Positions 2,872-20,000 of a stretch of DNA of 20,000 nucleotides are shown one piece after another. Source of the stretch: an uncultured virus (IMG/VR IMGVR_UViG_3300002124_000007) (Duplodnaviria; Heunggongvirae; Uroviricota; Caudoviricetes). The translations under genes were made by a program, and so were the position numbers. Where the stretch lies: positions 44,718 to 64,717 of IMG/VR virus record IMGVR_UViG_3300002124_000007; one strand, 5' to 3'. Under the pieces are notes generated by a model. That model ran no database searches, had not been told where the DNA came from, and worked only from the letters and a program-made list of their open reading frames with translations. The first letter of the stretch is position 1; each line of letters begins with the position of its first letter.

Positions 2872-4018
2872 CTTTTGTTATCTCCACAATTTTATCGTGC
2901 AACTGTTTGGCAGGAATATCCCATGTGCGCTTGGATACATAATCATATGCATTGTCTATAATTCGTGTGTGTGTCGTAGATAGATTTTCTTTGCTCGATA
3001 AGGCCCATTGCATGTCTCTTAGTGTAGATGCGGTTTCAGAACGATTAAGCATATCCCGCTTAGAATTGCCCCACACATCTGTAAAAGTATATTCAGAATT
3101 AATGAGCCATCCTCTATGCTCAGACAACAACTCATGCATTGCCCCTGTATCAGTTGCCACAACAGGAATTCTCATGCACATAGCGTCCAGTACAGGAAGC
3201 CCTAAGCCTTCTGCTTTAGACGGTTGCAAATACACATCAGCAATTGCATATAAAGCCCACAAATCTTTCTGTGGCATCCCTCGCTCATATGGAGTATATT
3301 CTTGATTGATCCCTAACTTTGTGGCAAGATCACGGAGCTTGAAACCATACGGATTTTGCTCACGAGTAACAATAACATATTTGATAGGGCGAGTGATTTC
3401 CTTTTTCAGTTTGGAAATAGCATCCATCCCCGCCCACAAATTTTTACGCTCCTGATTATCAGCAACGGTTAGTACAACAAAAGCATCCTGCGGAATTCCT
3501 AATCCGTCTCGAAATCTTTTCTTTTCTTCGGACGTAGCCGGATGCCATGACACCGTGTCAACGCCTATCTGAAGATGTTCTGCCTTGGTCACACCTGCCA
3601 GATGAGCCTCATCTGTTCCCAACTGTGAAATAAAGAATACACCATCCATATTGATAAGGGGTGCTGCCCAAGTCATACAGAGCGGCCCATTCTCAAGAGG
3701 AGTGATAGCAATATATTTCTTTCCAAATTTAGCAAACGTCTCATATAGACGAGATTGAATAGGTAAATCCATTCCCACAATCAGCGCATCAGGATTCCAA
3801 AGTTGAATAAGATTAGTGGCTATGACCGAGGCTTCTTCGATTGTTGCAGTAGGAATAACCGAGAAAGGATAGTTATGCTCCTCCCCTTGATACATAAATC
3901 CGATTAATTTAGTTTCATAATCATCTATTTTCTGTAGTTCCGTAAGTAGAGGAGCCATGATATGTTTATACCCACTACCTACAGAATCAAAATCAGTAAT
4001 AACTAATATCTTTTTCAC
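2843..4018 (-). CDS. Glycosyltransferase family 4 (GT-B fold)
   Basis: VADNQERKN, YAIADVYLQPSKAEGLGLPVLDAM, PVVATDTGA. Start placed at GTG 4018 (GTGA overlap, GGAGGAG upstream) rather than 4039. Confidence 0.92.
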   Translation of the reverse strand: MKKILVITDFDSVGSGYKHIMAPLLTELQKIDDYETKLIGFMYQGEEHNYPFSVIPTATIEEASVIATNLIQLWNPDALIVGMDLPIQSRLYETFAKFGKKYIAITPLENGPLCMTWAAPLINMDGVFFISQLGTDEAHLAGVTKAEHLQIGVDTVSWHPATSEEKKRFRDGLGIPQDAFVVLTVADNQERKNLWAGMDAISKLKKEITRPIKYVIVTREQNPYGFKLRDLATKLGINQEYTPYERGMPQKDLWALYAIADVYLQPSKAEGLGLPVLDAMCMRIPVVATDTGAMHELLSEHRGWLINSEYTFTDVWGNSKRDMLNRSETASTLRDMQWALSSKENLSTTHTRIIDNAYDYVSKRTWDIPAKQLHDKIVEITKDEPKTEASE

Positions 4019-5052
4019 GAGAAGACTTTCTCCTCCCAAGTATTCAGAATAGTCTCTACACTAAATCGTTTCTTGGCAACCTCACGCACCCATTCTTGTT
4101 TTTGTACCAATTTTGGGTCGGTCAATAACTCTATAGCGTTCTTTACAAATATGTCCTGCCATCTTGGGTCTTGAGCATTGCCATGAAGCACTCTCCCCAT
4201 ATTTGTAGTCTTTAAGGCTCCTGCATCCGTTGAGATTGGAAACACACCCGCTACCTGACTTTCTGCCACAGAGATACAAAACTGCTCATCAAAAATACAT
4301 GGGTAAAGATGAATATCAGCTTCTTGTTGAATTTTTACTAGTTCACTTCTCTTGATAGCTCCGTGATAAATCACATTTGGATGGTGAGCATAAGATAATT
4401 TGAAATGCCGAATTTGTTCTTCTGTACACCAGTCAGCCCATAATCTCCAATCCGATGTAATGACAAGAGATGCTTCTGGAACTTCAACATGAATACGTGG
4501 CCATGCCGCATGAAGCTCCATTACTCCCCTATCAGGGATAGATGTAAAGATGCACCGCTTAGGGATTTTTTGTACAGATTCCGAATACTCCCATGTGCGT
4601 ACTGGCAAATCAATCGCAATTCCATCTGTGATACCATACATCTCTTTAAAATAATTGGCGTGATGCGAGGATATATTCACTACCTTTTCTACATGACCGC
4701 GAAACTCTTTGAAGTCATCTACTGTATAACTATCACATGACCACCAAATTTTCTTGCCATTAGCTCCATCTATTCTTCTATTGGGAGAGCGAAAGACAAT
4801 CAATATATCTCTTTCATCTGATGGATTGAATTCTCCAAGCGTCTTTTGTTTGAAAGAAGATGCCCCGCCTTCCTTGGGATCATTATACAATGTGACATCG
4901 TTACCGTAATACTGCCACGCTCCACACATCGTCAGCAAGGCAAGCTCCGCCCCACCTACTCCCATGCGCCCATCTTCACCACGCATAGTTTTTTCTGTTA
5001 CCCCTAATGGCGAACCGTCGTTACATAGAACGTGAATAATTCTTCCTGTCAT
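4015..5052 (-). CDS. Glycosyltransferase family 4 (GT-B fold)
   Basis: GVGGAELA, FTSIPDRG, ADIHLYPCIFDEQFCISVAESQVAG (Ex7E motif), STDAGAL. Confidence 0.9.
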   Translation of the reverse strand: MTGRIIHVLCNDGSPLGVTEKTMRGEDGRMGVGGAELALLTMCGAWQYYGNDVTLYNDPKEGGASSFKQKTLGEFNPSDERDILIVFRSPNRRIDGANGKKIWWSCDSYTVDDFKEFRGHVEKVVNISSHHANYFKEMYGITDGIAIDLPVRTWEYSESVQKIPKRCIFTSIPDRGVMELHAAWPRIHVEVPEASLVITSDWRLWADWCTEEQIRHFKLSYAHHPNVIYHGAIKRSELVKIQQEADIHLYPCIFDEQFCISVAESQVAGVFPISTDAGALKTTNMGRVLHGNAQDPRWQDIFVKNAIELLTDPKLVQKQEWVREVAKKRFSVETILNTWEEKVFS

Positions 5053-5249
5053 TCTACAATCTTTCTTCTAATAATAACCTGAAGCGTAATCCCCTCGGTC
5101 AATTCTTTTTCATCTCTTGATAAAGGAAGTTTATATATTTCATCCAAAGCTCGCTTTAGGTCATCTAGATTATCTATATAATTAGTTCCCAAGGCAACTG
5201 TATCCCTTTTCTCGTTTAGACTATAAATTGAATAATTCCAATATCTCAT
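5049..5249 (-). CDS. Small hypothetical protein
   Basis: 66 aa; ATGA overlaps with both neighbours. Confidence 0.65.
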   Translation of the reverse strand: MRYWNYSIYSLNEKRDTVALGTNYIDNLDDLKRALDEIYKLPLSRDEKELTEGITLQVIIRRKIVE

Positions 5250-6496
5250 TTTGATATTCCTTCTTCTTCTAATTCTTTATTGAGTTTGTGCCAAAAGTCA
5301 TCAATCTCCTGCACCGAGACTTTTGATGTGGAGACAAATGAATGGTTCATATCATTCTTGCCCATATAGAACCAATCATCTGAAACATTATGCTCTATTC
5401 TAATATCGTAATTTTCTGGATGATTCCCCAAGGGTGTTCCAGGGAACGGTATAAGTCTTCCAACTTGCACTCTATCAGGTCTATACTCAAGTATCCACTT
5501 CCTAGTTTCTTGCATGGTAGCCAACGATTCCCCTGGGAGTCCGAGTATAAAGGATGTTTTACACCGTATCCCAAGTTCTTTGCACCACCTAACAATATTC
5601 GTATCCTGTTCAATCGTAGTCTTTTTGGTAATATTGTTCTTGATTTCGTTAGAAGCACTCTCCACTCCAACAAAAATTTCAACCAATCCGCCATCTCTTA
5701 GTTCTTTAAGATAGTCATATCCGCCCTGATTGTTGATGATATCACTCCGCAGGAAGCATCGCCAGATCATATTATATTTTCTATGTAGCTTCATTAATTC
5801 CAGCGTACGTTTTTTGTACAATGGAAGGATGTCATCGTAGTACGCAAGAGCCTGATAGCCTAAAGATTGTGCTTCTTTGATTTGATACTCCACTACATCC
5901 AAAGGTTCATAACGTGTAAGCCTGTCCCAAATGACGCCATGCCTTCCTGACTCACAAAATGCACATTCCAACGGACATCCACGAGAGGTGAACATAGTCG
6001 TGCAATCTATCTTTGTTCCATCTAAGTCTGTGAGTTGAGAAGAATACTTGCGTGACCATCTACGAACAGGAGGGATTACCCAATCCAATGTACGAGAGAT
6101 AGGAACAGAAAGATAAGGATTATCGTAATCTGGATTATGTAAAATTGTATGTATACTTTCTGGACTATCTGACTCTCCTCCTACAATCAAATCGTAATCT
6201 AAGTCTTTACAACTATCAGGATTTGCCCATACAGATGCCCCACCAAGAATCAATCTAGCATCATATCCGCCTAAAGACTTAGCAAGAGATTTAATTTCTT
6301 TCATCTGTGGGCTGGTAGCAGAAATCCAAATCTCATCATATACGTTAGAAGGTAATTCATCTACGTTCAAATCAAAAAATTCTGTTGTATGTCCTAATGA
6401 TTCTAAACGGGCCGCAAGATAAAAAAGTCCCAACGGCTGAAAAACCATAGGCATTTCAAGAAAAGTGCTTTTAGGCATTACCAAGGCAATGTTCAT
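5246..6496 (-). CDS. Cobalamin-binding (class B) radical SAM protein, probable methyltransferase
   Basis: N-terminal B12-binding domain (QPLGLFYLAARL, ILGGA), TSRGCPLECAFC (CxxxCxxC), YDD, VGVESAS, SFILGLPGES, PFPGTPL. Start placed at ATG 6496 (ATGA overlap). Confidence 0.9.
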   Translation of the reverse strand: MNIALVMPKSTFLEMPMVFQPLGLFYLAARLESLGHTTEFFDLNVDELPSNVYDEIWISATSPQMKEIKSLAKSLGGYDARLILGGASVWANPDSCKDLDYDLIVGGESDSPESIHTILHNPDYDNPYLSVPISRTLDWVIPPVRRWSRKYSSQLTDLDGTKIDCTTMFTSRGCPLECAFCESGRHGVIWDRLTRYEPLDVVEYQIKEAQSLGYQALAYYDDILPLYKKRTLELMKLHRKYNMIWRCFLRSDIINNQGGYDYLKELRDGGLVEIFVGVESASNEIKNNITKKTTIEQDTNIVRWCKELGIRCKTSFILGLPGESLATMQETRKWILEYRPDRVQVGRLIPFPGTPLGNHPENYDIRIEHNVSDDWFYMGKNDMNHSFVSTSKVSVQEIDDFWHKLNKELEEEGISK

Positions 6497-7185
6497 TCTT
6501 GCGCCCAATCCGGTAAATCTCTCAACTCTCCATTGGTTTCCAACGGATGTAACATAGGAAGTCCAAGAGCATTATACCGTTTCAACTTGGCATATATCGT
6601 GTCTGGCCCATAAGATTTATGCAGAAGACAGTACGGAGGCTTTAATTTCATGGTCACAGACTCATCCGCCAATCCAAGAAGCGTCCCATGTCGTACTGAC
6701 ATGTCAGCATAAATATCTACTACATCAGGACGCCAAGCCCATAGAGAACGATAATCTTCATGGAAATCCCTATTCATATAAGGAAAGTATTTATCATCTC
6801 CCCATAGATATAGACGGAAGGTATTTATTTGATGATATTGAAACATGTGTGCATATTTAAATATCGCCCTAGCCTCTTGTCTTAGAGTAAATGTTGGCAC
6901 ATCATCCATATCGTCAAAGATAATCCAATCTGGCTTCAATTCTTTTGCGGCATCTAACACAAAATTCATGTGTGGCGCATCTGGATTCCAAGTCTGCCCA
7001 TCTACTGTTTCTTGCTCTGTAAAGTGTAATAATTTCACTTTGGGATATTTCTTTAACATTTCCACAGAGTTGTCGGTTGAGCCTCCATCAGAGACTACAA
7101 TCATATCTGCAAAATCATAGCCACGCATGAAGCGTTCAATGTTCTTCTCTTCATTGTAACAGCGTACAGCCACTACAATTTTCAT
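6493..7185 (-). CDS. Glycosyltransferase family 2
   Basis: VRCYNEEKNIERF, VSDGGSTDNSVE, WIIFDDMDD. Start placed at ATG 7185 (ATGA overlap). Confidence 0.88.
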   Translation of the reverse strand: MKIVVAVRCYNEEKNIERFMRGYDFADMIVVSDGGSTDNSVEMLKKYPKVKLLHFTEQETVDGQTWNPDAPHMNFVLDAAKELKPDWIIFDDMDDVPTFTLRQEARAIFKYAHMFQYHQINTFRLYLWGDDKYFPYMNRDFHEDYRSLWAWRPDVVDIYADMSVRHGTLLGLADESVTMKLKPPYCLLHKSYGPDTIYAKLKRYNALGLPMLHPLETNGELRDLPDWAQE

Positions 7186-7853
7186 ATAATGGGTTCCCAT
7201 ACTACAGGAAAGCCGTTTGCCTTCCTAGCTTCATATACTATTCCATCATACATTGCCAAAGAATTTTCGTCTTTCCACTTATCATGGACATCATAAGGTC
7301 GTTTTCCATGAGCCGAATGTACATGCTCTACGATTGCCCTTTTGTCCCAATAAAACTTATTGAATAGCTTTGCTGTCTCATTAATTTCAGCATCTACACA
7401 CAAATACTCATAGACAGGCGGAGCAATCACTCCTCCCATATACTCTTTGCAATACCTTCTATCAAACATAAATTGTGTAGCAACTTGTAGATTTCCGTCA
7501 TAAGCCAAATCATTGAAGCCAACAACCCCACACCTGCCTAGCTTTTCTGCATGACTTTCTAATCCATACCTGAGCCAGTTCTCGTGGTATATCAAATCAT
7601 CCATAGAGGGGTGAATCATATCACCTGTAGACAACTTCAAACCCTTATTCCAAAGAGATAAAACGTTCCTACGATAATCACTATAATCTACAATACACCC
7701 ATAATCTAAAGCAATTTGGCAAGATTCTAAATCATCATCTATCAACACAATGGTTTCTATATCATAGTCATGAGTAGTTGCAACAAGACTATCCAGCATC
7801 GTTTTCAAAATTGTTGGACGTTTACAAGTGGGCAGAATAACAGAAACTTTCAT
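7182..7853 (-). CDS. Glycosyltransferase family 2
   Basis: MKVSVILPTCKRP, LIDDD, LWNKGLKLSTGD, SMDD, YLCVDAEI, VEHVH. Confidence 0.85.
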   Translation of the reverse strand: MKVSVILPTCKRPTILKTMLDSLVATTHDYDIETIVLIDDDLESCQIALDYGCIVDYSDYRRNVLSLWNKGLKLSTGDMIHPSMDDLIYHENWLRYGLESHAEKLGRCGVVGFNDLAYDGNLQVATQFMFDRRYCKEYMGGVIAPPVYEYLCVDAEINETAKLFNKFYWDKRAIVEHVHSAHGKRPYDVHDKWKDENSLAMYDGIVYEARKANGFPVVWEPII

Positions 7854-8788
7854 CGTTCTAACAACTTCCTTTCAAAATTCTCACGAACATCTTCTACAGC
7901 ATGAGTTCTATAATACCAGTCTACTGTATTTTGCACTCCCTGATCGAATGAGAAGTTTCTTTCCCATCCCAAAGAATGTATTTTTGTAGTATCTGCAATT
8001 TTGATTGGGCCAATAGGCATATCGGAACGAAAAACAATTTTTTTAGGACTCCAACCTACATAATACCAGATGACATCTAAAGCATCCATAGGAGTATATA
8101 GCTTTCCAGAGCCTATATCGACTTCTCCATCATCCATTTTCTCGGCGGCTAACAAGACTCCTTCAACCAAATCCTTTACATAAATCCAGTCTATCTTTTG
8201 ATTTCCATCTCCCCAAACTTCAAAGGGGTCTTGCTGGATAAAAGTCTTGGCGATCAGCGCACCAATGGCTCTATTCTCTTTCATTCGAGGGCCATATACG
8301 GTATAGGGACGGACAGAAATTCCACTAAATGAATTTTCAATGCTGAAGTCCTTCAACATTTGCTCACCCAACGATTTTTCCAGTCCATACACACCATCAA
8401 TTTCTCCAACAGCGCAAGCACTACTAAAAAATACAACCTTTTCAACCTGTTCACACGCCCTAAAAATAGTAGTATCCAGTTCCAAATTTCCCCACATTCT
8501 AGCATTATGATTTGTAAAATATCCCCTTCCCCCATTATCCGAGGCTAGATGAAATATGATATCAGACCCTTTCATAGCATGAACACATGAACTAAAGTTC
8601 CTCAAATCTGCTTGATAAATATATGCATCTTTGGGAATGTTTTTGTATAAGCCTGCTGAAAAGTCATCTACTACAATGACACTTTTTGCGACATTCAATA
8701 AAGATTCTGTAAGATGAGAACCAATAAATCCTGCCCCTCCAAGGACACACACCTGCTTGGATTTCCAAAAATCGTTCAATTTATTCAT
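7850..8788 (-). CDS. NAD-dependent NDP-sugar epimerase/dehydratase (extended SDR), GDP-mannose 3,5-epimerase-like
   Basis: GGAGFIG, HLASDNGGRGYF (cf. LAADMGGMGFI in GME, recalled), SSAC, YGLEK (YxxxK), VWGDGNQ, YVKDLVEG. Confidence 0.85.
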   Translation of the reverse strand: MNKLNDFWKSKQVCVLGGAGFIGSHLTESLLNVAKSVIVVDDFSAGLYKNIPKDAYIYQADLRNFSSCVHAMKGSDIIFHLASDNGGRGYFTNHNARMWGNLELDTTIFRACEQVEKVVFFSSACAVGEIDGVYGLEKSLGEQMLKDFSIENSFSGISVRPYTVYGPRMKENRAIGALIAKTFIQQDPFEVWGDGNQKIDWIYVKDLVEGVLLAAEKMDDGEVDIGSGKLYTPMDALDVIWYYVGWSPKKIVFRSDMPIGPIKIADTTKIHSLGWERNFSFDQGVQNTVDWYYRTHAVEDVRENFERKLLER

Positions 8789-9371
8789 ATCTTAATAAAT
8801 TCAAAAAAGTATTTCTATTCTCATCTAAATCTTTGTATGTCATACTCTTTATCTGCTCGATTGAGTATGAAAGCAAATTGATTTGTGTATCTTTTCTGAC
8901 AATGCCAATTCCACAATCTAAATCATGCACAGTAACATATAAATCAGGACGAGTTCTTAATGTAAGAATTGTTTTCCAAACTTCCCCACACCAGTCAGGA
9001 GATGCCTCTATGTATTTAGGAGTTGCCATCTCTGCTTTTGTGGGATTGCAATCATGAAGAAGAATAACTCCATTAGGGTTCATCCAACGCAAACAATTTT
9101 CTACGTCTCTTAGAGATTGTTCATAAGTATGATCCCCATCTATAAAAGCCGCATCAAAATGAGATGGGTGATAGAAAAAATAATCATCGCTAGACATCTC
9201 ATAAAACGTATCATTCTCATGATTTACAGGAACCGGAAAGTGAACATCTACCCCAATTTTATTCTTGCAGAGGATTGGAAAGAATGAATCTCCATTTCTA
9301 ACCCCGATTTCAAGATAGGTTTCTGCATCCAAAAAATCAATAAACCATTGGATTACATCAACCCTATTCAT
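8781..9371 (-). CDS. Class I SAM-dependent methyltransferase (Methyltransf_24-like)
   Basis: YLEIGVRNG, FDAAFIDGDHTYEQ, GVILLHDCNP, WCGEVWK. Confidence 0.88.
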   Translation of the reverse strand: MNRVDVIQWFIDFLDAETYLEIGVRNGDSFFPILCKNKIGVDVHFPVPVNHENDTFYEMSSDDYFFYHPSHFDAAFIDGDHTYEQSLRDVENCLRWMNPNGVILLHDCNPTKAEMATPKYIEASPDWCGEVWKTILTLRTRPDLYVTVHDLDCGIGIVRKDTQINLLSYSIEQIKSMTYKDLDENRNTFLNLLRYE

Positions 9372-9541
9372 CCTATCATCTCTTTCATTAAGCCTTTCAA
9401 ACTAGACAATTCAGCTTTCAATTCTATTTCAGGTAATTTTGCTAAATCAAATGGAAACATGTGTGGATTTGAATATGCCGCAATCAGGGTTGCCAGGACA
9501 TATAATGTTTCATTCATTTCATTCTCATCAAAAAGTTCCAT
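9368..9541 (-). CDS. Small hypothetical protein
   Basis: Its stop overlaps the methyltransferase start (ATGA). Start uncertain (9541, 9547 or 9568). Confidence 0.5.
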   Translation of the reverse strand: MELFDENEMNETLYVLATLIAAYSNPHMFPFDLAKLPEIELKAELSSLKGLMKEMIG

Positions 9542-9761
9542 TGCCATGCCTAAATTGAGGACAGACAAATTTCTTGTTGTTTTCAGTTAATCCACAGGCA
9601 ATACATTGAGATGTAAACCATTCCTCTAACGTACCAAAATTGTAAGTATAAGAATGATCTTTCAATTCGTGTCCACATTCTGTACAAGTAAGTTCTATCA
9701 TTCTTGACACTGTGTCATTTACTTCTAGTCGTATAATCTTTCCATTTGCTTCTACTATCAT
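9528..9761 (-). CDS. Small putative Zn-binding protein
   Basis: CTECGHELKDH ... CIACG ... CPQF pattern; ATG 9761 overlaps the upstream stop (ATGA). Confidence 0.6.
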   Translation of the reverse strand: MIVEANGKIIRLEVNDTVSRMIELTCTECGHELKDHSYTYNFGTLEEWFTSQCIACGLTENNKKFVCPQFRHGNGTF

Positions 9762-10360
9762 CTTTTCTTCTCGCTCATAATCCAATACTCGTTCGGACGA
9801 AGCTCATTATTTTCTTCATTCCACGTCAGAATATTTATGTGTTCCCACATAACATTCCAGCCAGAGACTTTTAAAAGGTTTTTGATTTGCTCCATATTCA
9901 TAACACTATAATGGTTTTTACCTACATAGGTATACCACTCAGGGGCAGGCAAAACCAGCCCAAGCCAGTTTTTAGAAACTCTTGCCCATTCCATTAGGGT
10001 TAATAACGGCATTGGAGAATGTTCTAAAGAGTGCCTGGAAAATACCAAATCAAATGAATCATCCTTATAATCCAAGAAGTTGAAGTCCATCCTCTTGACG
10101 TTGCGTCCATGATTTTGTGCATCAATATAATCTTCCCCCATACATATCCCATCGTATTTTACATCCCATTTTTCAAACATTGGCTGGCAAAATCCTGTGC
10201 CACATCCTACATCAAGAACGGATTTACAGGTCGCCATTCTACTCATCCAATAATCAATTACTTGGCGTGCAAGCTCGGTATGGCCGCTATCATCCGGTTG
10301 AGGATAAATATCCCCATATAATTTTGTAACATATTGATCGTGATGTTTCCAATCTCTCAT
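9758..10360 (-). CDS. Class I SAM-dependent methyltransferase (Methyltransf_11-like)
   Basis: SVLDVGCGTG, DDSFDLVFSRHSLEHSP, EWARV. Confidence 0.88.
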   Translation of the reverse strand: MRDWKHHDQYVTKLYGDIYPQPDDSGHTELARQVIDYWMSRMATCKSVLDVGCGTGFCQPMFEKWDVKYDGICMGEDYIDAQNHGRNVKRMDFNFLDYKDDSFDLVFSRHSLEHSPMPLLTLMEWARVSKNWLGLVLPAPEWYTYVGKNHYSVMNMEQIKNLLKVSGWNVMWEHINILTWNEENNELRPNEYWIMSEKKR

Positions 10361-10668
10361 TTCTCAAATACCAACTTTCTCATGTCTTCAAGATGCTTTT
10401 GTGTTGCGGCCAATGCCCCTGCCGAGCCTGTACCTTCTGATGGTCGCAATCCGCAGTTCCATAGATCGTCCATCAAAGCTTGAGCATCAGAATAATCCAA
10501 AGTAAACGAAGGGTTTATATATTCTACAAAACTTTTTTCATCATAAGTTGTCATAATCAAATCAGAGACAAGTGCATATAGTCTTCCCTCCCTAACTTCT
10601 GCCAAATAAAATTGTATTGACCTATGCCAAGGAGATGATATCCTAGCTTCTGCTTTTATTACAGTCAT
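10357..10668 (-). CDS. Hypothetical phage-type protein
   Basis: 103 aa with AQALMDDLWNCGLRPSEGTGSAGALAATQKHLEDMRKLVF; GGAG RBS; coupled to the next gene. Confidence 0.7.
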   Translation of the reverse strand: MTVIKAEARISSPWHRSIQFYLAEVREGRLYALVSDLIMTTYDEKSFVEYINPSFTLDYSDAQALMDDLWNCGLRPSEGTGSAGALAATQKHLEDMRKLVFEK

Positions 10669-10669
10669 T

Positions 10670-10903
10670 TTATTCTCCCAAATAAAACTTAATTGGTAAA
10701 TGCCCTATATCTAATTTTGTATGAGGAATTTTTTGTCCCTCTATATAAAAATTAAACCTAGCAGAGCCATCACCATCGACTTTCACCCTAAGTTCTCTAC
10801 TTGCCCCCACCGCCCCAAGATATTGAATAGCGCCACATATCGTTACAAAGTCTTGCAAGTCAGTATCATCTGCCTCAATCCTCATATCTATGTATTTTTT
10901 CAT
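10670..10903 (-). CDS. Small hypothetical protein
   Basis: 77 aa (VDGDGSARFNF); ATGA overlap with the rfbH stop. Confidence 0.65.
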   Translation of the reverse strand: MKKYIDMRIEADDTDLQDFVTICGAIQYLGAVGASRELRVKVDGDGSARFNFYIEGQKIPHTKLDIGHLPIKFYLGE

Positions 10904-12210
10904 TTCATTTTTCCTTCAATAAACTCATCAAATACAGAAAGCATGTAGGCAAGTCGTTCATCATCTATACTAGGATGTACACCAATCCAAAAAGAATAAT
11001 TCATTACCACATCTGAATTTATCAAGGGCTGAAAAACCTTACATTGGATAGATGAATATGCGGGTTGTCTAAGAAGATTTCCAGCAAATACCAGACGTGT
11101 GCCAATCTTCCTGCTCTCCAAAAAGTCAATCAACTCTCGCCTCGTGAATGGCGCAGATTCTTTCACGGTAATCAGGAAGCCAAACCATGACGGATTTGCG
11201 CCTTCAATATGCTGCATAAAGCGGAAATACTTTTTGTATTTATCTAATCCTTCGCGAAGAACTTGCCAATTATGTCTACGTCTTTCCACGAAAAAAGGCA
11301 ACTTCTTCAATTGTGATACTAAAAGTGATGCCTGCATGTCAGTTGCCTTCAGATTATATCCGATACGGGAAAAAGTATATTTATGGTCATAACCTTCTGG
11401 CAACTCACCTTCCTGCCAACAGAATCGTTTTCCACAAGTATTATCTTTTCCTGGCTCACACCAACAAGATTTTCCCCAATCTCTAAAACTTTGCAAAACC
11501 TTCTTCACCATAGGAGATTGGATTAGACACGCTCCCCCCTCCCCTGCCGTGATGTGATGAGCAGGGTAGAAACTGAGCGTACTAATATCACCAAAAGAGC
11601 CAAGTTGCTTACCACGAAGGCTACCCCCCAAACCGTCACAATTATCTTCGATAAGCCAGATTCCATATTCATTACAAATATCACGTAATGTTTCTGCATC
11701 GAAAGGATTACCGAGAGGATGAGCAAGAACCACACCTTTAGTTCGTCCCTCCACAATTGCATTTTCAATTATCTCCATACTCGGATTGAGTGTATTTAGG
11801 TCTACGTCCACGAAAACGGGAACAAGCCCGTTTTGGATAATAGGATTGAGAGTTGTTGGAAATCCCACTCCCACTGTAATGATTTCATCTCCAACATTTG
11901 CGCTTCGTGAGCCAAATGCCTTATCCGTAATTGTTGTGACAGCAAGTAAACTGGCAGAACTGCCACTATTAGTAAGCACAACATTACGTATTGTATGTTT
12001 GTAAAAAGTACGCAAATCTTTTTCAAATGTGTGAGCATATTTTCCTTCTGCATACCATTGTCCCAAAGCGCACTCTACAAGAGATGCTACATCATCACCG
12101 TCAAAATACTGTCCAGAGGATGTGATATAAGTTTCGCCTGGGATGAACTGTTTCTTTTTCTGACCATCAATGTTCTTTCTGACTCGCTCTATGATTTGTG
12201 CTTTGTTCAT
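10900..12210 (-). CDS. rfbH: NDP-4-keto-6-deoxyglucose 3-dehydrase (E1; RfbH/DdhC family; PMP- and [2Fe-2S]-dependent)
   Basis: NSGSSA, FPTTLNPIIQNGLVPVFVD, AHPLGNP, EDNCD, SFYPAHHITAGEGG (His in place of the DegT-family Lys), RDWGKSCWCEPGKDNTCGKRF, GYDHKYTFSRIGYNLK, FAGNLLRQPAY. Confidence 0.93.
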   Translation of the reverse strand: MNKAQIIERVRKNIDGQKKKQFIPGETYITSSGQYFDGDDVASLVECALGQWYAEGKYAHTFEKDLRTFYKHTIRNVVLTNSGSSASLLAVTTITDKAFGSRSANVGDEIITVGVGFPTTLNPIIQNGLVPVFVDVDLNTLNPSMEIIENAIVEGRTKGVVLAHPLGNPFDAETLRDICNEYGIWLIEDNCDGLGGSLRGKQLGSFGDISTLSFYPAHHITAGEGGACLIQSPMVKKVLQSFRDWGKSCWCEPGKDNTCGKRFCWQEGELPEGYDHKYTFSRIGYNLKATDMQASLLVSQLKKLPFFVERRRHNWQVLREGLDKYKKYFRFMQHIEGANPSWFGFLITVKESAPFTRRELIDFLESRKIGTRLVFAGNLLRQPAYSSIQCKVFQPLINSDVVMNYSFWIGVHPSIDDERLAYMLSVFDEFIEGKMK

Positions 12211-13064
12211 CCGTTGAATTCACTGGCAAGAAACTTTACCAATCCTTGCTCAAATGGCGGCACAAACAATCCCAATTCCTTTAACCCCGCACAATTCAGA
12301 CATCCATTTTTAGGGCGGGGAGCTTTCTGCTGCATTTCTTCAGTCGTCTTAGGAATAATCAACTTTTGCAATCCAAACTGTGTGGCAATCTTTACAGCAA
12401 AATCATATTTAGATAAGCACGTATCGCCTGCCACATGGAATAATCCTTGATATTTATCTGCCAATCCAATAGATAATCTAGCAAGATCATTTGATAATAT
12501 AGGATTCATAATTTGGTCAGTAGGAACAAATACTTTCTTTGCTTGAAAAATGGCAGAGATAACCTGCTTGGCAAAATTCTTTTTTAGCCTCTCTGTGCCA
12601 TATACTCCCACTGTTCGTACAATCACATATTTGGCATCCGATGTCAGGATGGTTTTTTCGACTGTTTCTTTTTGCACACCATATTTGTTTATAGGATGTG
12701 TCTCATCCTGTATTGTATAAGGCTCCTTCTTTGTCCCATCAAATACATAGGAAGATGAAAAATATACCAATTTGGCATTGAATGATTCGCACAAACGTAA
12801 TACAGTAATCGCACCCCTAACGTTCACTACATCTGTTCCGGCTGATTCTTCACACTTATCTACATGAGCAATTGCCGCTGGAAGATACACCACATCAGGG
12901 CGATCTTTGCTGAATACCTTGAAAAGAGTTTCATACTTTGTCAGGTCTGTATAACGCTCATTTGGATGTTTTGCTTCAACAGGTATGCCAAGGATAGCAT
13001 CTGGAATTTGCCTTGCAAGGGCTGATCCCACTAAACCACGTGCGCCAATAATCAAGGATTTCAC
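12207..13064 (-). CDS. RmlD-like NDP-4-keto-6-deoxysugar reductase (SDR)
   Basis: GARGLVG, AAIAHVDKCE, SSSYVFDGTKKEPY, PINKYGVQK, DQIMNP, APRPKN. GTG start overlaps the upstream stop. Confidence 0.88.
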   Translation of the reverse strand: MKSLIIGARGLVGSALARQIPDAILGIPVEAKHPNERYTDLTKYETLFKVFSKDRPDVVYLPAAIAHVDKCEESAGTDVVNVRGAITVLRLCESFNAKLVYFSSSYVFDGTKKEPYTIQDETHPINKYGVQKETVEKTILTSDAKYVIVRTVGVYGTERLKKNFAKQVISAIFQAKKVFVPTDQIMNPILSNDLARLSIGLADKYQGLFHVAGDTCLSKYDFAVKIATQFGLQKLIIPKTTEEMQQKAPRPKNGCLNCAGLKELGLFVPPFEQGLVKFLASEFNG

Positions 13065-13264
13065 TCAAAATTCTCCAACGTTTTCCAATGTGGATTATAT
13101 CTATAAAAAATATTTGATAGATACTGCTTAACTATTTTTCCGTTCCTAATAAATCCAATGTGACTTTTAGAAATAACCACATCATCCGCCCATACATACT
13201 CGGCCTCAGTTTCAGATGTCCATATGGTGTATTTATTCGTGGCTTCCATCGGCATGTTTTCCAT
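13061..13264 (-). CDS. Small hypothetical protein
   Basis: Up to 67 aa (start may be 13249); its stop overlaps the RmlD-like GTG start. Confidence 0.5.
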   Translation of the reverse strand: MENMPMEATNKYTIWTSETEAEYVWADDVVISKSHIGFIRNGKIVKQYLSNIFYRYNPHWKTLENFE

Positions 13265-13550
13265 ATTGAATTAGGTAATGACAAGAAATAACTTCATTCC
13301 CAATGAAAGCATTATATCTTTTGTATGCACCATAACCAACAATAATTCCAGGCGCACCGCAAGTACAAAATAATGTAGAACCTCGTGCATGACTCGCATC
13401 TCGAAAACAAAAATGCATAGAAGTTTGCAATACAGGAAACCATTGTTTGTATGACGGGAGGAAGATTTCTTTTTCCCGCTGAACGGAGACACCATTCAAA
13501 GTCGTAGCATGGTTAGGGTCATTATGATTACGAATTATATTGTTTGGCAT
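13233..13550 (-). CDS. Hypothetical protein with Cys/His motifs
   Basis: MHFC, FCTCGAPG, SCHY...GKHADGSHE; TAATG overlap with the upstream gene at 13550. Confidence 0.65.
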   Translation of the reverse strand: MPNNIIRNHNDPNHATTLNGVSVQREKEIFLPSYKQWFPVLQTSMHFCFRDASHARGSTLFCTCGAPGIIVGYGAYKRYNAFIGNEVISCHYLIQYGKHADGSHE

Positions 13551-14014
13551 TAGTCATACCATAGATAAGTAGCTGTATTCAAAAGGATTTGTTTCAACTG
13601 CGGATCAATCTTGAAACGTCCTGCATTGATTTCGATGGATTGAAAGATGTCGATGGGTTTTAGATTATGCCTCTCCCCTGCTGCCTTCCAATCACAAAGC
13701 ATCTCGATTAGATCAACCAAGTTCATTGCATTGATTCCATCAGGAAAATATTCAGGATGATGACGGTTATTGGTGTAGTGGTGATCGACTCCGACTTTCA
13801 TCTTGGATATAGTCTCACGATACACAGGGGAGCCATATTCCATTCCATTTAGTAGGGGAGTATATTTGTCGTAGATTTCTTTTTCAGGAGCCTCTAATTT
13901 GCTCATATCGTGCAGAAGAGAACGTCGAAGCAAATCTTCCACTACCTTATAAATCTTCAAACGCACATTTTGGATATGGTCTAATGTACCTTTCCAACTA
14001 TCGTAATTCACCAA
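13550..14014 (-). CDS. DUF5662-like HD-type metal-binding protein
   Basis: DHIQNV, LLHDMSKLE, HHYTNNRHHPEYF, MNLVDLIEMLCDWKAA, ILLNT. Start may be GTG 14011. Confidence 0.75.
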   Translation of the reverse strand: MVNYDSWKGTLDHIQNVRLKIYKVVEDLLRRSLLHDMSKLEAPEKEIYDKYTPLLNGMEYGSPVYRETISKMKVGVDHHYTNNRHHPEYFPDGINAMNLVDLIEMLCDWKAAGERHNLKPIDIFQSIEINAGRFKIDPQLKQILLNTATYLWYD

Positions 14015-14477
14015 ATACCTCTTTATAATAACTTTCTAAATATTTCCAGAGCGCGTCTTCTCCAAAATCTACTAGCAATCTAAATGCTCTATCTTTTGCT
14101 ACTAACCCATCATCATCTGTATATTTATAACCATAAAAACAGGGGGAATTATCAAAAACATAAGATACTCCACTATCAAAAAAAGCATCATCTTCACTCA
14201 TTCTGGTTAAGCTATAATAACAAACATCTGCTGGATACGGAGCATTAAAATGTCTAACCAAATAATCTTCCTTCCCCGAAATAATATCTATCTTTATACG
14301 AGCAAATCTTCTATTTTCAACCTGCTCATTGTACCAATTTGTTAACAATTGAAACTCAACAATTCCTCTTTCTCCAAGCACCAAAAATCTTAATTCTAAA
14401 CAATTAACTCCATAATTTTTCTTTGGGTCTGGATGAGTTCTATCATAAGCAGGAAAAAACTTTATTTCTCTTTTCAT
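13998..14477 (-). CDS. Hypothetical phage protein
   Basis: AT-rich ORF (YGVNCLELRFLVLGERGIVEFQLLTNWY ... GEDALWKYLESYYKEVF). ATG at 14477 lies 8 nt after TATAAT. Confidence 0.7.
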   Translation of the reverse strand: MKREIKFFPAYDRTHPDPKKNYGVNCLELRFLVLGERGIVEFQLLTNWYNEQVENRRFARIKIDIISGKEDYLVRHFNAPYPADVCYYSLTRMSEDDAFFDSGVSYVFDNSPCFYGYKYTDDDGLVAKDRAFRLLVDFGEDALWKYLESYYKEVFGELR

Positions 14478-14485
14478 ATACAACC

Positions 14486-14494
14486 ATTATATCA
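14486..14494 (-). promoter_or_regulatory. Extended -10 promoter element (TGnTATAAT), possibly driving a leaderless transcript
   Basis: Minus strand TGA-TATAAT-ggttgtat-ATG; the TG comes from the upstream stop codon; no SD before ATG 14477. Confidence 0.4.
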
Positions 14495-15421
14495 GGAAAT
14501 GAATCCACATTCTTTCAATATCATTGCGACACGGGCATCATAATCTTGACCTTGAACCAACTGGTAAGCTTCTTCTGCATTTGCTTCAGCCTTTTCAGGA
14601 TTGTTCTTGGCCCACAACACAGCATCAATAGCTTCCTGCATGTTGTTAAATATATGATGATGATGTAAAGATTCGTGTTTCCACCAGTCAGTGACATTAT
14701 TTATTATAGGATAAAGTTTCATGGCAGGAAGTTCAAACGCTCGACAATTCAAATCGTCCATACTTGACCAATTCAACCCAATCCTACCCTTATTGTACAA
14801 GGCTCGTGCTTCATCGAACACAGGCCCATTCTCAAATATCACACTCACACCTCGCTTACGAAGATCGTTTACCCATTGCACACGATTTTCATAAGGCATT
14901 CCTATCATAACAGCATCTACCATATCGTCTGGATTTGGAATATCTTTGGGATAAAAGTCATATTTACTATAAGCATACGGAAGGTAAATATCTCCATCCT
15001 TTGAATACACCGCCTGCATGTTGAAGAACTTATCGGAGTATTTGCGAGGAGTATCATAAAACTCATTCAGCACATGCGGGTCAGTTCCTACCGTCACAAC
15101 CATTCCATCCGAAGGCTTATACTTGGCATGAAATCCTGCATCCACTTGGATAATCAAATCGGGCTTCCAGTCTCCTAACTGCCCTTTGATAAGCTCATAA
15201 GGATATTCATTTGTGCCGAGAGTCAGAGGAAGTGGAACGTCGGGCGGAATAGCATACTTTTCTGGAAGGTTCATACCTCCAAGCCAGGGAATCCAACTCC
15301 CTGTATAAATTCCCGCCACTTTCAAATCCACATCTTCCCGATGCTCCAAGGCCTTCTTGAAATAAGTAGCCATAGCAAGAGGGTATACAAGATATGTAAG
15401 TAAGACTTTTATTTTATTCAT
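14492..15421 (-). CDS. Glycosyltransferase, GT-B fold (CgeB / Glyco_trans_1_2-like)
   Basis: GTDPHVL, YLPYAY, MIGMPYENRVQWV, LYNKGRIGLNWSSMDDLNCRAFELPAM, C-terminal DYDARVAMIL. Confidence 0.8.
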   Translation of the reverse strand: MNKIKVLLTYLVYPLAMATYFKKALEHREDVDLKVAGIYTGSWIPWLGGMNLPEKYAIPPDVPLPLTLGTNEYPYELIKGQLGDWKPDLIIQVDAGFHAKYKPSDGMVVTVGTDPHVLNEFYDTPRKYSDKFFNMQAVYSKDGDIYLPYAYSKYDFYPKDIPNPDDMVDAVMIGMPYENRVQWVNDLRKRGVSVIFENGPVFDEARALYNKGRIGLNWSSMDDLNCRAFELPAMKLYPIINNVTDWWKHESLHHHHIFNNMQEAIDAVLWAKNNPEKAEANAEEAYQLVQGQDYDARVAMILKECGFIS

Positions 15422-15824
15422 AGCAACTCTGGTTTAGAATAGTATCAACAACTTCGCCTCGCAACATAATTACATCGCTTCTCAACAACTGCGGCAAAAA
15501 CGGCATGAAGACATTGTGATAATATACAACGTCCACCTTTACGGCCTTCCCTTCACACAAAGAATTATCAGGATAAGAGATAAAAATCTCCACTTCGGGA
15601 TTGCTCAGATCGATTGGTGAATGTGAAGAATTACGAACACGCTCCTCAATTGACACTGTGTCATAAGGATACATGCTTCCATACAATGCGCCTTCTTGTG
15701 CGGCATCCTGAAGCTGAACATATTGAAAAAACATAATACCAAATTCAACTGCCCCACTTAGCAGAAACATCAACATAAGAAAACTAATTCCTAACTCAAC
15801 TAAACTTTGACCTTTATTTTTCAT
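15414..15824 (-). CDS. TadE-like pseudopilin (type IVc/Tad prepilin-like protein), 136 aa
   Basis: MKNKG|QSLVE: basic leader, Gly at -1, Glu at +5, hydrophobic helix LGISFLMLMFLLSGAVEFG, then LQDAAQEGALYGS. Start placed at ATG 15824; the longer track ORF overlaps the GT2 gene. Confidence 0.85.
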   Translation of the reverse strand: MKNKGQSLVELGISFLMLMFLLSGAVEFGIMFFQYVQLQDAAQEGALYGSMYPYDTVSIEERVRNSSHSPIDLSNPEVEIFISYPDNSLCEGKAVKVDVVYYHNVFMPFLPQLLRSDVIMLRGEVVDTILNQSCYE

Positions 15825-16494
15825 TCTCAGTCCATTTCTTACGAAACTTTTCTTTATTTGCAATAGTAATTGCCTCTCTGGCACTTCCATACGAGATACT
15901 TTGTGCCCCAATATGAGTTGTACAATCTTGTGTGAGAGCCACAAGATCAAATCCCAAGCTCTTTGCGGTTGTACAAATATCAACATCTTCCATGTCTGAT
16001 GGGGCATACCTCTCATCAAAATATCCAAGCTCTTCCCAATGTTCCTTGCGTGTGGCAAGTAACCAACCTTCCAAATATGGAAATATCTTCTTATTAAATG
16101 TGTTCCATCCCGTATCCCAATCTAAATAACGGCCTCCTACAATCGTTCTATTATAGGTCGTAGGTTGTAATGCAATAGAGATAGGAGACACGATGTCTTT
16201 ATGAATTCTAACATCATTACTAATCGTGATAATCACATCCCCCGTACAAGCCTTAATAGCGATATTGGACGCCTTCAAGAACATCACATTTTCATCCAAT
16301 TTGATGACTTTTATGGGAAGCATCCCATTCCCCTGCCACCACTTCAGGCCATCCAAAACATCTTGGTCGTTGCAATTATCGTTTACCACAACAACTTCAT
16401 GAACATCCGAACACTTCTGATATACGTCGAATAGAAGTTGGTGTGTAAGATGCCACTTACTATAAATAGGAATTGCAAAAGAAAATGTTTTCAT
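15814..16494 (-). CDS. Glycosyltransferase family 2
   Basis: FAIPIY, VVVVND, FLKASNIA, ISNDV, YLEGWLL, GYFDERYAPSDMEDVDIC. Confidence 0.9.
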   Translation of the reverse strand: MKTFSFAIPIYSKWHLTHQLLFDVYQKCSDVHEVVVVNDNCNDQDVLDGLKWWQGNGMLPIKVIKLDENVMFLKASNIAIKACTGDVIITISNDVRIHKDIVSPISIALQPTTYNRTIVGGRYLDWDTGWNTFNKKIFPYLEGWLLATRKEHWEELGYFDERYAPSDMEDVDICTTAKSLGFDLVALTQDCTTHIGAQSISYGSAREAITIANKEKFRKKWTENEK

Positions 16495-17315
16495 CTGTAA
16501 TAATCCGCAATCTCGAATATAGATTTTTGAATATCGTATTGGGACTGAAATCCCAAGCCGTGAATCTTGGATACATCCAAATAGAAATCTTTTGCCTGAA
16601 TTAATTTATGGAATTCTGGAATAGGAATTCTCTTAATGCTGCCTGTTCCTAGATACTTCTGCACAGAATACACAATTTCTTCAAAGCTATATCCTATTCC
16701 ATTGCCTACATTGTATATCTCATTTAGATTTCCGTAAACAAGGACGTGATAAATAGCATCAACCGCATCTCTCACATCAATCAAGTCACGAAGTATTTTT
16801 CCTTCATACAGAGAGACTTCTTCTCCTTGAACCAATTGCTGTATCATGTATTGCAGAGCGTTCTTCTTTTTGGAAACTTTGTGGTCATTGATCCCTATCA
16901 CATTAGACATACGAAGAATACGATAAGGAATATTACATGTTTGGCAATAGGAAATCAGTAATTGTTCCGCACATCGTTTGGTTATTGAATAAAATCCTGT
17001 GGGAAAGCAGGGTGAATCTTCTCGTGCAGGAATTTCAACCTTTCCATATACAAACCAAGATGAGATAAAGTTGAATTCAAATTCATTGCCATATTCTTTA
17101 CGACAATTTTCAAGAACATCTATCAATAAAGATAAGTTTGTATCAATGTCTAAATGTGGATTGGTATGAATATTATAATTGTCTACAGTAGATATAAAGT
17201 ATAAAATCTTGGGAGATTTGGGATAATAATCATCTCTCCCATTTGAAATAACACCATATCTACCACAAAACTCTCCCCCGATAAATCCTTTTCCAAACAC
17301 GTTTATTATGCTCAT
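16491..17315 (-). CDS. NAD-dependent NDP-sugar epimerase/reductase (extended SDR)
   Basis: FGKGFIGG, FISSWFVYG, GFYSITKRCAEQLL (YxxxK), RDLIDVRDAV, IYNVGNG. Confidence 0.85.
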   Translation of the reverse strand: MSIINVFGKGFIGGEFCGRYGVISNGRDDYYPKSPKILYFISTVDNYNIHTNPHLDIDTNLSLLIDVLENCRKEYGNEFEFNFISSWFVYGKVEIPAREDSPCFPTGFYSITKRCAEQLLISYCQTCNIPYRILRMSNVIGINDHKVSKKKNALQYMIQQLVQGEEVSLYEGKILRDLIDVRDAVDAIYHVLVYGNLNEIYNVGNGIGYSFEEIVYSVQKYLGTGSIKRIPIPEFHKLIQAKDFYLDVSKIHGLGFQSQYDIQKSIFEIADYYR

Positions 17316-18130
17316 TTTCCTGTCTCTTTCATCTCCTGCAATCCTTCAAGATGCCCGTATTGCAGTAGTCCTAACTTCTTACTCAAGTTTACATTCAGTC
17401 CTGCTTTATAAGGACGGGGTGCAACATCCATATCAAGTTCTTTATTTCTAGGCCCCACTAAAGACTCATCCAAACAATATTCCTTTGCCATATCCACAAT
17501 AAACTCGTACCAAGAAACAGTTCGTGACCCACTGATATGTAAAATATTCGGCATCTCATCAAATCTCAAAAGATATTGATAGAAGGCTTCTGCAAAATGT
17601 GGAAGGTACATGAATGAGCGTTCGATAAAGGTAGGATATGAATAAGACTGCCCTGCTCGCAGAGGATAAAGATGTTTGAATATTCGTTCGTGGTCAAAAA
17701 GATAAGATGTACGCACTACCTTCATAAATGGGAAAACTTCTCTAAGCCCCTCAGCCGCCAACTTAGTCAGTCCATAAAAGTTCTTAGGATTTGGCTTGCT
17801 ATTTTCCTTATAATTTCCCCACTTACCATCAAAAACTTGTGCTGTGGACATAAGAACCATTCCACAACCATACATCTCTGCCACTTCTGCTACATGGAAG
17901 GTTCCAATAACATTTATATCTTTGACTCTTTTTTCGTTTTCTTTCTTCTCACAAACATCTACATCAGAAATAGAAGCAAGGTGGACTATTATATCCACCT
18001 TGGTACTTCGTACAGCCAAATCAACTTCTTTCAAATTGCGAACATCGCAGGCTAATGGAACAACCTCCCCATATCTCATTAGCTCCTGTCCTACATGACC
18101 AGCATAACCCGTTAATCCATATGTTGTCAT
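17312..18130 (-). CDS. Second RmlD-like NDP-sugar reductase (SDR)
   Basis: TGYAGHVGQEL, HLASISDVDVCE, STAQVFDG, PNPKNFYGLTKLAAE, SWYEF, APRP. Confidence 0.85.
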   Translation of the reverse strand: MTTYGLTGYAGHVGQELMRYGEVVPLACDVRNLKEVDLAVRSTKVDIIVHLASISDVDVCEKKENEKRVKDINVIGTFHVAEVAEMYGCGMVLMSTAQVFDGKWGNYKENSKPNPKNFYGLTKLAAEGLREVFPFMKVVRTSYLFDHERIFKHLYPLRAGQSYSYPTFIERSFMYLPHFAEAFYQYLLRFDEMPNILHISGSRTVSWYEFIVDMAKEYCLDESLVGPRNKELDMDVAPRPYKAGLNVNLSKKLGLLQYGHLEGLQEMKETGK

Positions 18131-19346: not shown

Positions 19347-19417
19347 TACTAATGGTTTGCATTAGCGGCGCGTGCCAACAGACCGCTTTCAATAGTCGGC
19401 TCCACGCTTTGTTGGGC
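19347..19417 (-). mobile_element. Degenerate, probably chimeric, terminal attC-like site
   Basis: Top strand GCCCAAC-AAAGCGTGGAGCCGAC...GCCGCTAATGCAAACC-ATTAGTA. R'' is canonical RYYYAAC, but R' reads ATT instead of GTT and the two arms pair poorly. Confidence 0.6.
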
Positions 19418-19546
19418 GGATTCAAGATCATCAAGAATGGCTATTAGCGTGCCGCATGAAATCGTGTAAGGCTCACTCATTCCAAGCCTAGACTTTCTAG
19501 CCATCTCTTTAGCCTTTTTGCGAATATCAATCAATCCTTGTTGCAT
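19349..19546 (-). CDS. Cassette-borne hypothetical protein (65 aa) reading through the terminal attC
   Basis: AGGAG SD before ATG 19546 (MQQGLIDIRKKAKEM...); the C-terminus AQQSVEPT...ANH is encoded by the attC-like sequence. Confidence 0.6.
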   Translation of the reverse strand: MQQGLIDIRKKAKEMARKSRLGMSEPYTISCGTLIAILDDLESAQQSVEPTIESGLLARAANANH

Positions 19547-19567
19547 ATTTCTCTCCTGGGCGAGTCT

Positions 19568-19766
19568 GCCCAACTGATTAGGCTTTAGCGGCGGGGCGTC
19601 CCCAATAACCCAAACTCGCTGCGCCATAATGTTTGCAATCAACACCACAAATGGGGCAATGTTTCACATCTGCGCCATAAGCACGATGCACGTGATGACA
19701 TTTCGGGCAAGGCTTATCAGCCCACCGCCACTCTGTAGCCTCGTCCGCTGCAAGCCTGTGTTCTAC
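19568..19766 (-). mobile_element. attC-like site, 199 bp, with a ~140-nt central loop
   Basis: R'' GTAGAAC (19766-19760), R' GTTGGGC (19574-19568). Bottom (+) strand stem AGGCTT-t-AGCGG-CGGGGC pairs with GCCTCG-T-CCGCT-Gc-AAGCCT, leaving extrahelical T19744 and G19750 on the R'' arm. Confidence 0.75.
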
Positions 19767-19886
19767 CGCCACAAGCCCCTCAAGTTCCTTGATAAGCGGC
19801 AGGATTACTTTATCCCAACGTTCCTGGGTTACATACACATCCTCTTCGTAGAGCGTGTCAATTGCCTTTTGGATTATTTCTTCCAT
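19578..19886 (-). CDS. Cassette-borne hypothetical protein with a C-terminal zinc ribbon encoded inside the attC loop
   Basis: AAGGA SD, ATG 19886; CPKC-x13-CPIC; stop at 19580-19578 lies just before R'. Confidence 0.7.
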   Translation of the reverse strand: MEEIIQKAIDTLYEEDVYVTQERWDKVILPLIKELEGLVAVEHRLAADEATEWRWADKPCPKCHHVHRAYGADVKHCPICGVDCKHYGAASLGYWGRPAAKA

Positions 19887-19912
19887 CGTTTTCCTTTCGT
19901 ACGCATGAGGCG

Positions 19913-20000
19913 GTAGAACGGTTGGCGTTACCCGCTTGGGGCAACGTCATCATTGCTATCATTCGCCTCAGCCCGCCCCAAGTCGGGTGCAAGCTGTGTT
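19913..20000 (-). mobile_element. attC-like site (R'' truncated by the window edge)
   Basis: Top strand AAC-ACA-GCTTGCACCCGACTTGGGGC...GCCCCAAGCGGGTAACGC-CAACC-GTTCTAC. Bottom-strand stem ACCCG-CTTGGGGC / GCCCCAAG-T-CGGGT-G with extrahelical T19983 and G19989. Confidence 0.78.

What the first reader, a model, noticed from the sequence alone, without database searches (positions are those of the whole stretch)
19568..19886. Protein-coding attC: a zinc ribbon encoded in the variable loop of the recombination site
Seen: the 102-aa ORF does not stop at R''. It runs through the left arm (VEHRLAADEA), the 140-nt loop (19737-19598; KPCPKCHHVHRAYGADVKHCPICG) and the right arm (RPAAKA), stopping just before R'. 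The next ORF also reads through its attC (AQQSVEPT...). Established: cassette ORFs usually stop in or near R'', and attC sites are typically about 55-145 bp, against 199 bp here. Inference: the attC loop has been co-opted as coding sequence, so the DNA is dual-use. Exchange between attC arms could swap C-terminal Zn-ribbon modules among cassette proteins.
Basis: partly seen in the sequence, partly recalled or inferred. Interest (0 to 1): 0.8.

Follow-up and report, generated by a model that had tools for sequence, protein, structure and literature searches.

The report
Recombination hairpin doubling as zinc-finger gene
In this phage, the folded DNA site that lets a small gene be cut and pasted is itself read as the second half of that gene's protein, a probable zinc-binding tail, and related phages pair the same gene fronts with different tails, a natural form of protein part-swapping.

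Summary
Confirmed. The 102-aa ORF (19886-19578, -) is a 40-aa head plus 62 aa read from a 199-nt attC site (19766-19568); the loop gives CxxC-x13-CxxC and the stop lies in the R' spacer. It sits in a cassette array at the cut end of a virus contig. It is no one-off: among 483 attC sites of this Chloroflexota-type family, 131 of 162 viral but 19 of 127 cellular sites are entered by an ORF; the right-arm stop is in the entering frame in 110 of 147 loop clusters (52 expected); CxxC lies in that frame in 48 of 142, against 11 of 284 off-frame. Homologous heads carry unrelated tails, and identity ends right after R''. One run holds cassette B with another loop. Against: 86 of 142 translated loops have at most one Cys, pN/pS is inconclusive, this site folds weakly, and expression, zinc binding and recombination are untested. 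Ordinary bottom-strand recombination cannot swap tails; a crossover at R'' is needed. The scan noted this trait before in other phages (e1-5345148, e1-5675510, e1-5917174); my paper searches found only engineered coding attC sites.

The parts
19913..20000 (-). attC1, cut by the contig end (R'' lacks its first 4 nt); R' GTTCTAC at 19919-19913; would be 92 nt; one frame is open to the L' TAA
19574..19918 (-). Cassette A (345 bp); its core TTCTAC is complementary to its own R'' GTAGAAC
19892..19897 (-). Ribosome-binding-site-like AAAGGA, 5 nt before the ATG
   Evidence: sequence only
19578..19886 (-). 102-aa ORF: head residues 1-40, attC-encoded tail 41-102
19767..19886 (-). 40-aa helical head; homologues P0003, P0004, P0005 carry no tail or other attC-type tails
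19568..19766 (-). attC2, 199 nt: R'' 19766-19760, spacer 19759-19755, L'' 19754-19747, L' 19589-19583, spacer 19582-19575 (holds the stop), R' 19574-19568
19598..19737 (-). 140-nt variable terminal loop, read in frame without a stop
19647..19709 (-). C60-x2-C63-x13-C77-x2-C80, probable zinc ribbon (a fifth Cys at 84)
19619..19680 (-). 11-nt exact repeat at 51-nt spacing (19680-19670 and 19629-19619): probable in-frame 17-codon duplication that lengthened the loop
   Evidence: 14 of 5000 shuffles reach it; the ungapped window test was not significant (128 of 500)
19349..19546 (-). Cassette B ORF, 65 aa, reads through attC3 and stops in its core; cassette core TTGGGC complementary to R'' GCCCAAC
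19347..19417 (-). attC3, 71 nt, decayed terminal site (core ATTAGTA, no attC fold); run X4 has a different sequence after its left arm (after 19394)

Best explanation
Cassette A belongs to an integron-type array carried by a phage, probably of Anaerolineae-type Chloroflexota. SHOWN in sequence: the ORF enters R'' without meeting a stop, and is open through the left arm and loop to a stop in the right arm; across the family, attC length is tuned so that the right-arm stop falls in the entering frame, and about a third of loops carry CxxC in that frame. INFERRED: these phage attC sites are under two constraints, folding of the bottom strand for IntI (host or phage encoded) and translation of the top strand, so the loop supplies a small C-terminal module, here a probable four-Cys zinc ribbon on a helical head, lengthened by a probable 17-codon duplication at some cost in folding. 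Whole cassettes move by normal recombination at G|TT, which keeps head and tail together. Tails are changed by a rarer crossover at or just after the R'' AAC that replaces the whole attC; candidates are IntI recombination of top strands, or homology/slippage in the conserved 23-nt left arm.
For: Entry frame vs L' stop frame 110 of 147 clusters, permutation mean 52, none of 20000 permutations reached it; viral 69 of 92; 72 of 91 with an RBS-like motif. CxxC in frame 48 of 142 vs 11 of 284 off-frame, two CxxC 18 of 142 (window included) vs 1 of 284, shuffled loops 3.5 and 0.05; in loci found by the right arm only 27 of 87 vs 8 of 174, reverse strand 2 of 261. Viral 131 of 162 vs cellular 19 of 127 sites entered by an ORF. 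Cassette cores complementary at 4 of 4 positions in 96 of 135 viral cassettes. IntI over the TIGR02249 cut-off in 3 of 50 viral records and 5 of 5 cellular genomes tested. Same head, other tail: P0004, P0005; 12 of 42 head-sharing pairs; in 10 such pairs R'' identity 0.95, spacer 0.60, background 0.57-0.66 and 0.58-0.60. L265, the closest attC relative, has an unrelated head entering in another frame yet reads CPKCH and ends RPAAKA*. Run X4: 607 nt identical, then another loop after attC3's left arm.
Against: 86 of 142 translated loops have at most one Cys, and 42 of 154 translated clusters stop inside the loop. pN/pS 0.76 and substitutions 19/16/19 by codon position on only 5 pairs, none Cys-rich. 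The ribbon is not conserved among head homologues; P0003 has no tail. Pfam match under cut-off (23.2 vs 25.4 bits), models of low confidence (pLDDT 61 and 59), no fold match at E<=0.001. This site folds weakly and its L' TAA is out of frame (it stops 7 nt later). No integrase in the record. ORF calls are mechanical; the 10 crossover pairs are not all independent.
Confidence: 0.7

Rival explanations
1. Translation through attC is selected for its effect on expression, not for the peptide: ribosomes melt the mRNA hairpin and stop about 30 nt from the next start, coupling translation along the array. Tails are mostly tolerated filler; zinc ribbons are a secondary gain in a subset.
For: A review (PMC8876359 section 31) reports that attC hairpins block ribosomes and that short ORFs within attC relieve this. 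It explains the stop-frame bias, the 86 of 142 Cys-poor loops, the weak pN/pS and free tail exchange.
Against: It does not explain frame-specific CxxC pairs (18 of 142 vs 1 of 284), nor a loop grown to 140 nt at a cost in folding; both cassettes here have their own RBS-like motif. It is compatible with the best explanation as its first step.
Confidence: 0.2
2. The family trait is real but attC2 itself is no longer a working site: the duplication overgrew the loop and the cassette is now a fixed gene with an attC-shaped relic.
For: Longest of 483 sites, R-box pairing 0.021, 8-nt R' spacer, neighbouring attC3 decayed, no contig skipping or replacing cassette A at attC2 in 4 runs.
Against: Both arms, both extrahelical bases and GTT are intact and the MFE holds the L stem; chromosomal integrons hold many low-pfold sites (PMC5371416 passages); the same arm subtype recurs in L031, L264, L265, L296.
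Confidence: 0.3
3. Accidental read-through: R'' lacks an in-frame TAA, and a Cys-rich loop arose by chance.
For: Short GC-balanced loops are often open in any frame (about half to two thirds in untranslated sites).
Against: Frame-specific stop and CxxC biases; shuffled loops give two CxxC 0.05 times in 142.
Confidence: 0.04

Closest known systems
Integron attC sites and gene cassettes (IntI/attI/attC)
   Same: R''-L''-loop-L'-R' layout, AAC/GTT triplet, two extrahelical bases, complementary cassette cores, IntI in related records.
   Different: 199 nt against 57-141 bp (PMC5027507, PMC5371416 passages) and a 140-nt loop against 20-100 nt (10.1101/030866 passage); 8-nt R' spacer; 62 of 102 codons lie in the site.
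Phage-borne integrons and CALINs (PMC9892861)
   Same: attC clusters in phage genomes, some recombined by IntI1 in that paper.
   Different: That text has no occurrence of 'zinc', 'Chloroflex' or 'VTS'; coding loops and tail exchange were not seen in the parts read.
Synthetic protein-coding attC sites (PMC7439510)
   Same: One DNA stretch works as attC hairpin and as protein code; proposed for module shuffling.
   Different: Engineered, with 3-21-nt loops encoding linkers or lacZ stretches; here natural, the long loop encodes a terminal module and the arm supplies the stop.
Short ORFs inside attC that aid downstream translation (via review PMC8876359)
   Same: Translation across the attC hairpin.
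   Different: Those start inside attC after the cassette gene stops; here the cassette gene itself continues, with frame-specific Cys motifs.
Group IIC-attC introns (via PMC7923331)
   Same: Insert at R'' and were proposed to join genes to attC sites, the same junction where heads and tails part here.
   Different: No intron or reverse transcriptase was looked for or seen; only a candidate route.

Membership tests
Integron attC site | R'' and R' with AAC/GTT triplet | tested here: met
   GTAGAAC / GTTGGGC
Integron attC site | L''/L' stem on the bottom strand with two extrahelical bases | tested here: met
   MFE structure, pairing 0.6 (outer) and 0.35 (inner)
Integron attC site | Unpaired central spacer of 5-6 nt on each arm | tested here: inconclusive
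   5 and 8 nt, three pairs of which extend the L stem; same subtype in L031, L264, L265, L296
Integron attC site | Usual length 57-141 bp (descriptive, not mechanistic) | tested here: not met
   199 nt; family median 123-129
Integron attC site | Cassette core complementary to the cassette's own R'' | tested here: met
   TTCTAC/GTAGAAC and TTGGGC/GCCCAAC; 96 of 135 viral cassettes 4 of 4
Integron attC site | Recombined by IntI at G|TT | not testable with these tools
   Indirect only: contigs in runs X6 and X8 share attC1's right arm and part from it after GTT (35-38 nt matches, may be other phages)
CALIN (attC cluster without integrase) | Two or more attC, no nearby intI | tested here: inconclusive
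   Three sites, no PF00589 match in G000, but the contig ends inside attC1 and intI lies upstream of the array in relatives
Zinc ribbon (4-Cys) | Two CxxC knuckles | tested here: met
   C60, C63, C77, C80
Zinc ribbon (4-Cys) | Profile or fold match to a named family | tested here: inconclusive
   PF12760 E 6.5e-5, under cut-off; best Foldseek rows mostly RanBP2-type fingers, E>=0.12
Zinc ribbon (4-Cys) | Binds zinc | not testable with these tools
   needs purified protein

The most novel reading that the evidence does not exclude
These phages use integron chemistry at two levels: bottom-strand recombination at R' reorders whole cassettes, while integrase-driven top-strand recombination at R'' swaps the coding attC modules, building head x tail protein libraries (zinc ribbons, hydrophobic or acidic tails): a natural site-specific domain-shuffling system.
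Probability: 0.25. Interest if true: 0.88.

Novelty: new variant of a known kind. Interest (0 to 1): 0.7.

Why it matters
attC loops are treated as structural spacers, and coding attC sites were found in my searches only as engineered tools. A natural family in which site length and content track the reading frame shows that recombination sites can become protein modules, gives a concrete route for new microproteins, and offers a testable handle on the open question of how genes get joined to, and re-joined with, attC sites (the junction maps to R''). It also means that cassette annotation that trims ORFs at attC, or attC models with length limits, would misread these arrays.

Tried and rejected
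Circular contig: no terminal repeat, so the upstream array cannot be recovered. The search for related loci found only a 22-aa Cys-motif match; the search for homologous proteins only the protein itself; P0002 and P0006 are repeat-protein noise. One search gave one chance hit; about half of the 10 hits were not attC sites. First two detector versions were too strict. Ungapped test for a loop duplication not significant. pN/pS underpowered. ESM Atlas: no hit at 0.9 or more, structure rows under the bar. PHROGs: 0 families for 12 of 12 proteins. Rfam: nothing. Promoter/terminator scan at chance level. No RNA holder listed. No complex prediction was made. Scan notes for this genome or look-alikes: none.

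Full report
Context. The window is the last 20 kb of G000, a 64,717-base IMG/VR virus record, linear, 92% complete, with no Phage_integrase match and no terminal repeat. The minus strand carries morphogenesis-like genes, a long glycosylation cluster and, at the very end, three attC-like sites; the contig ends inside the first.

Observation. The ORF, the arms, the 140-nt loop and the stop position are as described. The two cassettes have complementary cores (TTCTAC/GTAGAAC, TTGGGC/GCCCAAC), the mark of insertion at G|TT. The bottom strand's MFE holds the L stem with two extrahelical bases, but the site is no more stable than shuffles (z -0.76), L-stem pairing is 0.64 (viral translated median 0.95) and R-box pairing 0.021 (about 11% of 167 viral sites are lower). 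attC3 is decayed (ATT core, no fold). An 11-nt repeat at 51-nt spacing (14 of 5000 shuffles) suggests a 17-codon duplication (CPKC...YGA / CPIC...YGA); a window-based test did not support it (128 of 500).

Data set. A family-specific detector gave 588 hits against 2 on reversed sequence of the same 1.10 Mb, 530 distinct. I dropped 47 with loops under 45 nt or length over 210, leaving 483 (170 viral, 174 metagenome, 139 genome) in 218 loop clusters. A site was called translated from upstream and left-arm sequence only (longest frame, ATG at least 30 codons before R'', no stop in the left arm); outcomes were measured on loop and right arm.

Family-level tests. Translated: 131 of 162 viral, 54 of 147 metagenome, 19 of 127 genome sites with full upstream sequence. 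The right-arm stop is in the entering frame in 110 of 147 clusters (permutation mean 52), for each of the three frames (47 of 69, 20 of 23, 43 of 55). Of 154 translated clusters, 104 stop in the right arm, 5 in the last two loop codons, 42 inside the loop and 3 beyond; the other frames give 65, 0, 157 and 86. CxxC: 48 of 142 in frame, 11 of 284 off-frame; two CxxC: 18 of 142 (window included) against 1 of 284; shuffled loops 3.5 and 0.05. In viral loci found by the right arm alone: 27 of 87, 8 of 174, reverse strand 2 of 261. The largest cluster (147 sites, mostly cellular or metagenomic) is 121 untranslated with no CxxC in any frame. Against a general zinc role: 86 of 142 loops have at most one Cys, and 5 independent same-frame pairs gave pN/pS 0.76 without third-position excess. 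The 17 two-CxxC tails aligned share only the four Cys (selected for that) and match assorted ribbon families weakly, so they look polyphyletic. The window's site is an exception to the L' stop rule: it uses a TAA 7 nt later, as do L031, L264, L296 and L265. L265 has the most similar arms, an unrelated head that enters one frame off, and still reads CPKCH...RPAAKA*; my script had missed it (GTG start).

Tail exchange. A search of 1.84 billion representatives gave 6 hits; three are homologues of the 40-aa head: P0003 ends without a tail, P0004 goes on VEHRVQRIG...CICVAC...ANR, P0005 AEQPLAVD with one Cys (protein only, the attC origin of those tails is inferred from the arm peptides). Among 455 sites, 12 of 42 head-sharing pairs have loops under 0.6 identity. 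In 10 such pairs among 378 sites with 23-nt arms, the first four R'' bases are 0.95 identical, the spacer 0.60 (background 0.57-0.66 and 0.58-0.60), and each site keeps matched L''/L': the attC is replaced as a unit from about the AAC. In run X4 a contig is identical to 19394-20000 and then continues with 169 other letters after attC3's left arm; read by hand from table 7, the first ten codons are open in frame. Whether this is another loop or further cassettes cannot be told. Contigs of X6 and X8 leave attC1 right after GTT.

Integrase. TIGR02249 passes its cut-off in 3 of 50 viral records (50 of 56 intended were searched) and in 5 of 5 cellular genomes picked for carrying these sites. In L323-L325 intI lies upstream of, and co-oriented with, the cassettes, i.e. 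where G000 is cut off, so CALIN or full integron is open.

Mechanism. Shown: anatomy, frame and Cys biases, head-tail mosaics. From literature: recombination is at AAC, in R' for the bottom and R'' for the top strand (PMC5027507, passages); integrase-free events occur between similar attC sites of small cassettes (PMC5371416, passages); group IIC-attC introns insert at R'' (PMC7923331, passages); attC hairpins hinder ribosomes and short inner ORFs relieve this (PMC8876359, passages and section 31; primary paper not read). Inferred: bottom-strand events keep head and tail together; tail swaps need an R''-side crossover; top x top attC recombination is my inference and was not seen tested. Models give a helix-loop-helix head continued by the left-arm peptide and a low-confidence tail, with weak zinc-finger fold hits only.

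Prior work. Phage attC clusters: PMC9892861 (first seventh of the text and passages). Engineered coding attC: PMC7439510 (passages). Length ranges: 10.1101/030866 (passages). Nine searches listed no paper on natural coding loops or zinc ribbons in attC ('zinc ribbon' 0 in all 10 rows); subscription papers and supplements were not seen and may bear on this. That cassette ORFs sometimes run into attC, and that one gene can occur with different attC sites, is recalled from older literature, not checked. The scan itself noted the trait in at least three other phages, one note partly falling on later check (part not given); my numbers are independent of them.

Verdict. Real, a new variant of a known kind; dual use likely (0.7), function of this particular tail and activity of this long site open. 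Interest 0.7.

Noticed in passing
window 2026-18130 (-): About 16 kb of glycosyltransferases, NAD epimerases, RmlD-like reductases, a DegT aminotransferase, a B12 radical SAM enzyme and methyltransferases between the array and the morphogenesis genes; possibly virion or DNA glycosylation.
   Followed up: no
window 15414-15821 (-): TadE-like pseudopilin gene inside the phage glycosylation cluster (Pfam PF07811 over cut-off).
   Followed up: no
L323, L324, L325, L326: Phage intI genes are co-oriented with the cassettes; in L326 cassettes lie on both sides of intI.
   Followed up: partly
window 19913-20000 (-): attC1 (92 nt if complete) is open to its L' TAA in one frame (acidic tail), which predicts the frame of the missing upstream gene.
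   Followed up: partly
L305, attC at 2165 and 4584 (+): One phage holds two cassettes with nearly the same Cys/His tail on different heads.
   Followed up: no
L003, L293, L317, L320, L048, L121, L125 and window 19353-19347: Several sites have ATT instead of GTT in R'; in the window it is the last site of the array, perhaps a locked terminus.
   Followed up: no
L072/L297 and L288/L295: The same loop peptide is reached from different entry frames through a 4- or 5-nt spacer or a 1-nt loop change.
   Followed up: partly
L190, L198: Phage-like short translated cassettes inside genome bins; may be prophages, which blurs the cellular control group.
   Followed up: no
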